Of a DNA stretch of 64,000 nt, positions 39,234 through 39,319 are shown one piece after another (positions within the stretch are counted from its first letter, which is position 1; every line of letters starts with the position of its first letter). The position numbers were made by a program, and so were the translations under genes. The notes below the pieces were generated by a model. The model was not told the origin of the DNA. It made no database searches and saw only the letters and a list, made by a program, of their open reading frames with translations. The stretch is from a virus. The DNA is taken from positions 43,277 through 107,276 of IMG/VR virus record IMGVR_UViG_3300050025_000126; one strand, 5' to 3'.

Positions 39234-39319
39234 AGCAGGAGACTAACCGACTGTCTTACAGCTTCCCGTATGCGAACGCATCTTGTTTGGCTGCCAGGGA
39301 TTGAACCTGGGTTCCCGCT
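39234..39319 (-). ncRNA. Circularly permuted tRNA-like RNA B4 (YrlA-type topology)
   Basis: AGCGGG, T-arm CCAGG-TTCAATC-CCTGG, CAGC/GCTG, TA, D-arm AGAC-AGTCGGTTA-GTCT, CCTGCT. Confidence 0.7.

What the first reader, a model, noticed from the sequence alone, without database searches (positions are those of the whole stretch)
39234..39319. Circularly permuted tRNA: T-arm precedes D-arm, opened at the anticodon loop
Seen (minus strand): AGCGGG / AAC / CCAGG-TTCAATC-CCTGG / CAGC...GCTG closed acceptor-like stem / TA / AGAC-AGTCGGTTA-GTCT / CCTGCT. All tRNA elbow elements are present in permuted order. Known: this is the topology of bacterial YrlA Y RNAs (Ro60 partners); permuted tRNA genes also occur in some algae and archaea. 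No Ro60 gene is in this window and I see no GNCGAANG Ro-binding motif, so this may be a Ro-independent elbow mimic, or a precursor circularised by the neighbouring ligases (inference).
Basis: partly seen in the sequence, partly recalled or inferred. Interest (0 to 1): 0.85.

Follow-up and report, generated by a model that had tools for sequence, protein, structure and literature searches.

The report
Inside-out tRNA mimic in phage operon
A peat-soil phage carries, between two ordinary tRNA genes and just upstream of two RNA-ligase genes, an 86-base RNA gene that is a tRNA turned inside out (sealed at the amino-acid end, open at the anticodon end); it resembles the tRNA-like core of bacterial YrlA Y RNAs but has no Ro60 partner or docking site, and its job is still unknown.

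Summary
The RNA folds as closing stem, 4-nt variable loop, canonical T arm, loop-closed acceptor-like hairpin, UA, canonical D arm, closing stem. Every tRNA elbow and core nucleotide is present.

- **Chance:** a strict descriptor finds it once in the 107-kb phage record, never in 300 shuffles and never in 1.48 Mb of other phage DNA.
- **Origin:** the 8 nt after the closing stem (CCUAUUUU) are an intact anticodon-loop heptamer plus one U. Re-joined in silico, the pieces are called tRNA-Ile(UAU), so the break lies at position 38/39.
- **Second copy:** another RNA in the same operon (39401-39500) has the same topology with 8 compensatory pair differences.
- **YrlA membership fails:** no GNCGAAN0-1G motif, no TROVE gene, no RF02553 match, and different T and D stems.
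- **Not a decoding tRNA:** the acceptor stem has only 4 bp.
- **Relatives:** the ~1-kb RNA cassette is an insertion absent from the nearest syntenic relatives. Copies were seen only in peat and wood-decay read sets.

Best reading: a processed, Ro-independent tRNA mimic working with the phage RNA-repair genes. Expression is untested. The scan has noted permuted tRNA mimics on other phage DNA, usually with a protein partner.

The parts
39234..39319 (-). Core of the permuted tRNA-like RNA (86 nt)
   Evidence: Sequence, MFE fold, descriptor statistics
39314..39319 (-). Closing ('anticodon') stem, 5' strand AGCGGG (tRNA positions 39-44)
   Evidence: Pairs with 39234-39239
39294..39310 (-). T arm CCAGG-UUCAAUC-CCUGG, preceded by a variable loop ending in C48
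   Evidence: The stem is shared 4/5 with the second element.
39259..39293 (-). Loop-closed acceptor-like hairpin: 4 bp, asymmetric internal loop, 4-bp tip with GUUC loop
   Evidence: This is the fastest-changing part in the wood-decay variant.
39240..39258 (-). U8-A9 junction plus D arm AGAC-AGUCGGUUA-GUCU
39234..39239 (-). Closing stem, 3' strand CCUGCU (tRNA positions 26-31)
39226..39233 (-). 3' overhang CCUAUUUU: an intact anticodon-loop heptamer (C33, UAU) plus one U, ending at the RNase P site of the next tRNA
   Evidence: Same register as the UCUAUAA loops of the two tRNA-Ile-like RNAs downstream. The de-permuted construct is called tRNA-Ile(UAU).
39320..39323 (-). 4-nt spacer GCAA between the upstream tRNA and the element (inferred 5' leader)
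39324..39395 (-). Upstream tRNA (anticodon GAA, no encoded CCA)
   Evidence: RF00005 58.3 bits, ARAGORN
39152..39225 (-). Downstream tRNA-Arg(CCU), no encoded CCA
   Evidence: RF00005 65 bits
39401..39500 (-). Second RNA of the same permuted topology, ending GCACCA
   Evidence: Fold z = -2.9. Model R1 16.5 bits in register. 17 of 18 comparable pairs kept, 8 changed on both sides.
39668..39696 (-). Promoter-like site TTGACA-17-TAGTAT at the head of the RNA array. No terminator-like site on this strand before the ligase genes.
37843..38826 (-). RNA ligase of the DraRnl/NgrRnl (TIGR02306, 'Rnl5') type with N-terminal OB domain. It starts 14 nt after the last RNA of the array.
   Evidence: Pfam PF09414 + PF21189, PDB 5cot/6vt4, homologues
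36684..37787 (-). T4 Rnl1-type RNA ligase
   Evidence: Pfam PF09511, PDB 2c5u/5tt6, phrog_562
39879..40331 (-). Small HAD-type phosphatase-like gene (DxDxT motif) upstream of the cassette
   Evidence: Translation, phrog_1238

Best explanation
The element is a real, tRNA-derived, non-decoding RNA gene. It is a tRNA-Ile(UAU)-like body circularly permuted at position 38/39.

**Inferred fold.** It should adopt the tRNA L-shape with a canonical D-loop/T-loop elbow. The acceptor arm is short and sealed by a loop. The anticodon stem is open at its end and carries the former anticodon loop as an 8-nt 3' overhang.

**Inferred processing.** It is transcribed from the promoter at 39696 as part of an eight-RNA array that runs on into two RNA-ligase genes. 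It is set free by the enzymes that mature its neighbours. RNase P cutting at +1 of tRNA-Arg makes its 3'-OH end. RNase Z or other 3' processing of the upstream tRNA makes its 5'-phosphate end.

**Inferred function.** It cannot be charged or decode. It most likely acts as a tRNA mimic in the conflict over tRNA cleavage and repair. It could be a decoy that occupies a host tRNA-binding nuclease or enzyme through the elbow. It could also be a tRNA-shaped partner or substrate of the co-encoded Rnl1-type and OB-domain Rnl5-type ligases. The second role parallels what has been proposed for YrlA with RtcB, but without Ro60.

**Shown:** the sequence anatomy, its rarity, its tRNA-Ile ancestry, a second element of the same topology with compensatory changes, and the genomic setting.

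**Inferred:** expression, processing sites, end chemistry, L-shape and function.
For: - **Anatomy and rarity:** all four helices and all tertiary-interaction nucleotides are intact. The strict descriptor hits only this element.
- **Ancestry:** the 5' half, the natural 3' tail and the 3' half, joined in silico, are called tRNA-Ile(UAU). ARAGORN does so at default settings with a 3-bp artificial clamp, and at -ps90 with the natural 4-bp acceptor.
- **Architecture:** order and spacing match the YrlA tRNA-like core (stem / V / T arm / abutting closed hairpin / UA / 4-bp D arm with 9-nt loop / stem).
- **Second element:** the RNA at 39401-39500 keeps 17 of 18 comparable pairs, with 8 changed on both sides. 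Slid controls give 0-2, and 1 of 500 shuffles reaches the observed value.
- **Uneven decay:** the core stems are perfect, while the distal 3 bp of the acceptor are lost. This is the pattern expected if the elbow, not the acceptor end, is under selection (inference).
- **Natural variant:** in the wood-decay read set the four visible changes all lie in the T-loop and acceptor-like region. A28>G keeps the pair as G-U. C31>U would add a U-A pair. A34>C lies in the internal loop. C17>U (tRNA C56) still allows G19-U56. No change is seen in the 16 nt of closing stem and T stem 5' strand, or in 55 nt of the adjoining tRNA.
- **Setting:** 4-nt and 8-nt spacers to flanking tRNAs that lack an encoded CCA. 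One promoter-like site and no terminator-like site before the ligases. Ligases of NgrRnl and T4 Rnl1 type, and a HAD-like gene.
- **Published context:** most YrlA RNAs are described as resembling circularly permuted tRNAs with loop-closed acceptor stems. Y RNAs are sometimes encoded beside tRNAs and beside RNA ligases of several families (Wang et al. 2018; Chen et al. 2014).
Against: - There is no evidence of expression, processing or RNA ends. No RNA run was listed among the holders.
- No homologue was found outside near-identical or ~93%-identical copies, so there is no phylogenetic covariation for this element itself.
- The nearest syntenic relatives (80-82% identical ligase) lack the whole cassette. 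The ligases therefore do not need it.
- The folding energy is not better than shuffles.
- The variant's C56>U touches a normally invariant elbow pair. That variant is a single contig at depth 2.3, so it may contain errors.
- The pair comparison with the second element rests on an alignment fitted to the model.
- No binding partner is identified.
Confidence: 0.5

Rival explanations
1. It is a non-functional relic. Two adjacent copies of a tRNA-Ile(UAU)-like gene lost their outer halves. What remains is the 3' half of one copy, the spacer, and the 5' half plus loop of the next. The RNA is made only because it lies in the operon.
For: Phage tRNA arrays commonly hold degenerate tRNAs, and this operon has several odd ones. 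The element has tRNA-Ile ancestry. The cassette is dispensable in the closest relatives. The element changes faster than its tRNA neighbours in the wood-decay variant, including a C56>U change. No homologues were found elsewhere.
Against: A recent relic should still have 7 complementary acceptor pairs. An old one should show decay in all stems. Instead the closing, T and D stems and every tertiary nucleotide are perfect, and only the distal acceptor is lost. A second RNA with the same unusual topology but different stem sequences sits 80 nt upstream. No close tRNA parent is present in the operon or in 139 phage tRNAs compared.
Confidence: 0.22
2. It is a true Y RNA of the YrlA family. It works with a Ro60/Rsr protein encoded in the missing ~35% of the phage genome or by the host.
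For: The topology is identical to the YrlA tRNA-like domain. Phage YrlAs exist (Chen et al. 2014; Bxz1 control). The record is only ~65% complete.
Against: There is no GNCGAAN0-1G motif and no long bulged helix, since the closing stem is only 6-7 bp. No TROVE gene is found in 107 kb, whereas published YrlAs lie within 4 kb of Ro60 on the same strand. RF02553 gives only an off-register 10-bit match, against 32.5 bits for Bxz1. The T and D stem sequences conserved across YrlAs (GCGGG/CCCGC, GCUC/GAGC) are not shared.
Confidence: 0.08
3. It is a permuted tRNA gene in the algal or archaeal sense. The ends are ligated in the anticodon loop by the neighbouring ligases. RNase P and RNase Z then open the acceptor hairpin to give a working tRNA-Ile(UAU).
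For: The 3' half precedes the 5' half, and the full anticodon-loop heptamer is retained. Processing of the flanking tRNAs should give 5'-phosphate and 3'-OH ends, which ATP-dependent ligases can join (established enzymology; inference here). An Rnl1-type ligase lies 1.5 kb downstream.
Against: The acceptor stem has only 4 bp (5 in the variant), with no discriminator or CCA context. Joining the predicted ends gives an 11-12-nt loop, not 7. Position 33 is C, not U. ARAGORN needs an artificial clamp or a lowered threshold to call the construct.
Confidence: 0.04

Closest known systems
YrlA (Y RNA-like A; Rfam RF02553; Chen et al. 2014 PMC4201824; Wang et al. 2018 bioRxiv 10.1101/312249), found in bacteria and mycobacteriophages
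   Same: The order and spacing of elements are the same: stem, short V region, T arm, abutting loop-closed acceptor-like hairpin of variable length, UA, D arm with a 4-bp stem and 9-nt loop, stem. The same tRNA tertiary nucleotides are present. There is no anticodon loop closure and no free CCA. It is sometimes encoded beside tRNAs and beside RNA ligase genes.
   Different: There is no Ro-binding module (GNCGAAN0-1G, long bulged helix) and no Ro60/TROVE gene in 107 kb. The T and D stem sequences differ. There is no significant RF02553 score. The element sits inside a tRNA array with processing-defined ends, it retains the anticodon-loop heptamer as a 3' tail, and its partners are ATP-dependent ligases rather than RtcB.
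Circularly permuted tRNA genes of Cyanidioschyzon merolae, some green algae and Thermofilum (from my own knowledge: Soma et al. 2007 and later work; mentioned in PMC4238349)
   Same: The 3' half is encoded upstream of the 5' half, with the break next to the anticodon loop. A ligation step could in principle close it.
   Different: Those genes keep a full 7-bp acceptor stem and mature into decoding tRNAs through a circular intermediate made by the splicing endonuclease and ligase. This element has a 4-bp sealed acceptor, C33, and extra nucleotides at the junction. No such genes are known in bacteria or phages.
Ro-independent tRNA-like RNAs predicted beside RNA-repair ligases (b7a-tRNA and related; Burroughs and Aravind 2016, as cited; jumbo-phage overview PMC7824862)
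   Same: A tRNA-shaped non-coding RNA is linked in an operon to RNA ligases and end-healing enzymes, in a conflict or repair context.
   Different: The b7a-tRNA is described as resembling an authentic, un-permuted tRNA and is linked to RtcB and a Band-7 protein. Here the RNA is permuted and linked to Rnl5-type and Rnl1-type ligases.
Phage T4 stable RNAs rnaC and rnaD (species 1 and 2) in the T4 tRNA operon
   Same: These are non-tRNA stable RNAs of unknown function, co-transcribed and co-processed with phage tRNAs.
   Different: They are not permuted. rnaC has its T arm near the 3' end in the normal order, and rnaD has no T arm.

Membership tests
YrlA / bacterial Y RNA (RF02553) | tRNA-like domain in the order stem - V - T arm - closed acceptor-like stem-loop - D arm - stem | tested here: met
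   MFE fold. Side-by-side comparison with the RF02553 consensus and Bxz1 YrlA. R1 aligns Bxz1 YrlA in register, though weakly at 11.3 bits.
YrlA / bacterial Y RNA (RF02553) | tRNA tertiary-interaction nucleotides (U8:A14, 15:48 Levitt pair, G18/G19 with T-loop 55/56, 54:58) | tested here: met
   Read directly from the sequence. Required by the strict descriptor.
YrlA / bacterial Y RNA (RF02553) | GNCGAAN0-1G Ro60-binding motif near the 5' end, on a long bulged helix | tested here: not met
   No match on the transcribed strand anywhere in 38830-39700. The closing stem is only 6-7 bp.
YrlA / bacterial Y RNA (RF02553) | Encoded within about 4 kb of a Ro60/TROVE gene on the same strand | tested here: not met
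   PF05731 finds nothing in six frames of the 107-kb record at E<=1, while the controls ring. About 20 neighbouring proteins scanned show no TROVE. Caveat: the record is ~65% complete.
YrlA / bacterial Y RNA (RF02553) | Significant score to the Rfam covariance model | tested here: not met
   No hit at E<=10. Only an off-register 10.1-bit match. Positive control Bxz1 scores 32.5 bits, E 2e-6, although that is itself below the 69-bit gathering score.
YrlA / bacterial Y RNA (RF02553) | Conserved T-stem and D-stem sequences (GCGGG/CCCGC and GCUC/GAGC) | tested here: not met
   Here the stems are CCAGG/CCUGG and AGAC/GUCU. Their conservation in YrlAs is stressed.
YrlA / bacterial Y RNA (RF02553) | Binds Ro60/Rsr | not testable with these tools
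   Needs immunoprecipitation or binding assays.
Permuted tRNA gene (functional tRNA after circularisation) | 3' half upstream of 5' half in one transcription unit | tested here: met
Permuted tRNA gene (functional tRNA after circularisation) | Full 7-bp acceptor stem with discriminator, so that RNase P and RNase Z give mature ends | tested here: not met
   Only 4 consecutive pairs (5 in the variant), followed by an 8x7 internal loop.
Permuted tRNA gene (functional tRNA after circularisation) | Ligation restores a 7-nt anticodon loop with U33 | tested here: not met
   The tail CCUAUUUU plus the leader (G)CAA gives 11-12 nt. Position 33 is C.
Permuted tRNA gene (functional tRNA after circularisation) | Circular RNA intermediate | not testable with these tools
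   No RNA reads were available.
Canonical tRNA (RF00005) | Cloverleaf in the normal 5'-to-3' order, detected by tRNA finders | tested here: not met
   Not called by ARAGORN or Infernal in its native order.
Two-piece (permuted) tmRNA | Permuted tRNA-like domain with a CCA end and a tag reading frame | tested here: not met
   ARAGORN with tmRNA search on the whole genome finds none. No RF00023-clan hit covers the element.

The most novel reading that the evidence does not exclude
The element, and its sister at 39401-39500, may be made as 'pre-broken' tRNA bodies. Their juxtaposed 5'-phosphate and 3'-OH ends would come from RNase Z and RNase P acting on the neighbouring tRNAs. The co-transcribed Rnl1-type or OB-domain Rnl5-type ligase would then seal them. 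The product would be a covalently closed, exonuclease-proof, tRNA-shaped circle that displays a CUAU-containing anticodon-like loop. This would be a phage-made circular tRNA decoy or ligase cofactor that works without Ro60. It would also point to RNA ligases as the long-sought effector of the YrlA-type tRNA-like module.
Probability: 0.1. Interest if true: 0.85.

Novelty: new variant of a known kind. Interest (0 to 1): 0.55.

Why it matters
The tRNA-like domain of YrlA RNAs is structurally well known, but its binding partner and purpose are still open (Wang et al. 2018). Here the same module occurs stripped of the Ro60-docking part. It is present twice in one phage operon, and it is physically joined to two ATP-dependent RNA ligases and a HAD-type phosphatase-like gene.

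If it is functional, it is a minimal natural system for asking what a permuted tRNA elbow does in RNA damage and repair conflicts. It could also show whether ligases act on it or are guided by it.

It would also be, to my knowledge and in the papers I could search, the first case of a phage tRNA array that contains permuted tRNA bodies whose ends are set by the tRNA-processing enzymes themselves.

The limits are real. It is seen in one lineage only, there are no expression data, and the cassette is absent from the closest relatives.

Tried and rejected
- **Rfam** at gathering and at E<=10 gave nothing but the flanking tRNAs.
- **RF02553 on the whole record** gave only an off-register 10-bit match.
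- **Search by the neighbouring ligase:** 160 loci from IMG/VR and metagenomes. The single-sequence model R1 found no homologue. The best hits (L102, L090, L046, L150) were ordinary tandem tRNAs or unconvincing.
- **Whole viral records:** R1 and the two-sequence model R2 over 50 records each (49 of them the same) found nothing. The one R2 hit (G041) is AT-rich, has no T loop and was rejected.
- **DNA patterns:** four exact or degenerate patterns in viral contigs and one in genome contigs gave 0 matches.
- **blastn against 50,697 phage records** matched only the tRNAs.
- **The 57-aa ORF of the cassette** has no relatives in IMG/VR.
- **Sequencing runs:** no RNA holder was listed. All runs laid were contigs, so RNA ends, joints and expression could not be read.
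- **Parent tRNA:** none was found among 139 phage tRNAs or in the operon.
- **Splint RNA** complementary to the two predicted ends: at chance level.
- **T4 rnaC and rnaD** are not permuted.
- **tmRNA:** none. **RtcB:** none.
- **Tunturiibacter phage Tunturi_3** has a similar ligase/HAD gene set but no such RNA.

Full report
**What the DNA is**

The window is the right-hand 64 kb of a 107-kb IMG/VR virus record, about 65% complete. A near-identical copy is held in runs labelled peat metagenome. The gene content is that of a large lytic tailed phage:
- DnaB-type helicase, primase and a UvsX/RecA-like recombinase;
- Clp protease, and a Nampt plus Prs-like pair;
- two RNA ligases.

**The observation**

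An unconstrained fold returns exactly that structure as both MFE and centroid:
- a 6-7-bp closing stem;
- a T arm CCAGG/UUCAAUC/CCUGG;
- an abutting hairpin (CAGC...GCUG, internal loop, 4-bp tip);
- UA;
- a D arm AGAC/AGUCGGUUA/GUCU.

In tRNA numbering, U8, A9, A14, G15:C48, G18, G19, A21, G53:C61, U54:A58 and C56 are all in place.

The folding energy is unremarkable (z = -0.37). The architecture is not. A loose descriptor is expected 0.06 times per shuffled window. A strict one that also demands the tertiary nucleotides gave 0 hits in 300 shuffles and 0 hits in 1.48 Mb of other tRNA-rich phage loci. It hit only this element in the whole 107-kb record.

tRNA finders call the neighbours but not this stretch. 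No ORF covers it.

**Where the tRNA was opened**

The closing stem is followed by CCUAUUUU and then directly by G+1 of tRNA-Arg(CCU). The first seven of these nucleotides sit where an anticodon loop would sit. They match, in the same register, the unusual loops UCUAUAA (C33, UAU) of the two tRNA-Ile-like RNAs further down the operon.

I joined the 5' half, this natural tail and the 3' half in a script. ARAGORN then calls tRNA-Ile(UAU). It does so at default settings if the acceptor is lengthened by three artificial pairs, and at the 90% threshold with the natural 4-bp acceptor.

So the element is a tRNA-Ile(UAU)-like body permuted at 38/39, with the whole loop kept as a 3' overhang. YCUAUW occurs 5 times on the transcribed strand of the 822-nt array, against about 0.9 expected from the window-wide rate.

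**Setting**

One promoter-like site, TTGACA-17-TAGTAT (39696-39668), heads the array. No terminator-like site follows on that strand. The element lies 4 nt after a tRNA(GAA) and 8 nt before tRNA-Arg. Neither tRNA encodes CCA.

The neighbouring genes are:
- an NgrRnl/DraRnl-type ligase with an N-terminal OB domain, starting fourteen nucleotides after the last RNA;
- a T4 Rnl1-type ligase after it;
- a small HAD-motif gene upstream.

From established enzymology, RNase P leaves a 3'-OH on what lies upstream of a tRNA. RNase Z leaves a 5'-phosphate on what lies downstream. The element would therefore be released with exactly the ends that ATP-dependent ligases join. This is inference, not shown.

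**A second copy of the design**

I checked it. It folds into the same order of helices (z = -2.9). My single-sequence model aligns it in register (16.5 bits).

Of 18 comparable pairs, 17 are kept and 8 differ on both sides. Slid controls give 0-2, and 1 of 500 shuffles reaches the observed value. The alignment is fitted to the model, so this leans towards the structure. Even so, two RNAs with this rare topology and different stem sequences in one operon argue that the topology itself is maintained.

**Relatives**

The ligase has thousands of homologues. The two closest metagenome contigs (80-82% identity) are syntenic, but the HAD gene abuts the ligase in them. A 57-aa ORF, the promoter and all eight RNAs (~1.04 kb) are an insertion in this phage.

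No homologue of the element was found by any of these searches:
- 160 ligase-anchored loci;
- two searches of 50 whole viral records each, 49 of them the same;
- 50,697 phage records searched by blastn;
- five pattern scans of viral and genome contigs.

Public read sets hold two useful copies:
- a one-mismatch copy in a second peat study;
- fragments of a ~93%-identical cassette in a wood-decay metagenome.

In the wood-decay contig the four visible differences are these:
- C17>U (tRNA C56; a G19-U56 pair is still possible);
- A28>G (A-U becomes G-U);
- C31>U (adds a U-A pair to the acceptor-like stem);
- A34>C (internal loop).

Nothing changes in the closing-stem and T-stem 5' strands or in 55 nt of the adjoining tRNA. 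The contig is at depth 2.3 and six further differences are hidden near its ends. This is weak support only.

**Comparison with YrlA**

Published YrlAs are described as resembling circularly permuted tRNAs with loop-closed acceptor stems. They carry a 5' GNCGAAN0-1G motif and lie within 4 kb of Ro60 on the same strand.

As a positive control, RF02553 finds the mycobacteriophage Bxz1 YrlA core 190 nt upstream of its Ro60 homologue (32.5 bits). The consensus shown there has the same order and spacing as this element.

This element nevertheless fails the family's defining features:
- no motif;
- no TROVE gene in 107 kb;
- no RtcB;
- different T and D stems;
- no meaningful RF02553 score.

It therefore works like the YrlA tRNA-like module but is not a member of the family.

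**Other readings**

- **Permuted tRNA gene.** It is not one in the algal sense. The acceptor has 4 bp, the joined loop would be 11-12 nt, and position 33 is C.
- **tmRNA.** It is not a tmRNA piece.
- **T4 rnaC and rnaD.** These are not permuted.

**Verdict**

This is a genuine tRNA-derived RNA gene of YrlA-type topology, without the Ro module, inside a phage tRNA/RNA-repair operon.

- **Best reading (about 0.5):** a processed tRNA mimic acting as a decoy or ligase partner.
- **Main rival (about 0.2):** a relic of rearranged tRNA-Ile genes.
- **Boldest reading not excluded (about 0.1):** ligase-sealed circular tRNA-shaped RNAs.

The scan's earlier notes show permuted tRNA mimics on other phage and bacterial DNA. 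They usually come with a Ro60-like or other protein partner. I did not test those notes, and this sequence itself was not seen elsewhere.

Noticed in passing
window 39401-39500 (-): A second RNA has the same permuted topology (closing stem, T-like arm, long closed hairpin, UA, D-like arm) and ends in GCACCA. Its T loop (UGACAAU) and D loop (AAUCCAACA) are non-canonical. C18 with G55 could replace the usual G18:U55 contact.
   Followed up: partly
window 38890, 38982, 39070, 39228, 39511 (-): YCUAUW occurs five times on the transcribed strand of the 822-nt RNA array, against about 0.9 expected. Four of the five lie in a hairpin loop or in the single-stranded tail of this element; I did not check where the fifth (39511) lies. 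It may be a shared recognition or cleavage motif.
   Followed up: partly
window 38827-39878 versus L082:4990-5000 and L081:515-523: The whole RNA cassette is an indel. A 57-aa ORF (39700-39873), the promoter and eight RNAs (~1.04 kb) are absent from the two closest syntenic relatives, where the HAD gene abuts the ligase gene.
   Followed up: yes
window 39504-39650 (-): The first RNA after the promoter is a ~140-nt multi-branched structure that folds far better than shuffles (z = -3.8). It has no Rfam match.
   Followed up: no
window 38839-38927 and 38954-39011 (-): Two tRNA-Ile(UAU)-like RNAs have C33 instead of U33. One has a 16-nt extra arm. The other scores below the tRNA gathering score (24 bits) and has a poor T arm.
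   Followed up: no
window 10644-10741 (-): A tRNA-like gene has a ~40-nt insertion in the anticodon region (RF00005 37.6 bits). It belongs to a second cluster of odd tRNA-derived RNAs.
   Followed up: no
L171 (Tunturiibacter phage Tunturi_3, PP885686.1 43850-59031): This cultured Acidobacteria phage from Finnish soil has a similar gene set: an Rnl1-like ligase, a HAD-like 'phosphoheptose isomerase' phrog, an Rnl5-like ligase, endonuclease VII and UvsX. That is a lead to the host range of the window's phage. It has no RNA cassette.
   Followed up: partly
L168:3480-3556 (Mycobacterium phage Bxz1, 129979-130055): The published type of phage YrlA scores only 32.5 bits against RF02553, whose gathering score is 69. 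Tandem tRNAs in the same genome score 20-22 bits. The Rfam model therefore separates phage YrlAs from tandem-tRNA artefacts only narrowly.
   Followed up: yes
window 33287-35610 (-): A Nampt-like gene and a Prs-like gene sit side by side (Pfam NAPRTase/NAMPT_N and Pribosyltran). This is the kind of pair described for phage NAD+ reconstitution.
   Followed up: no
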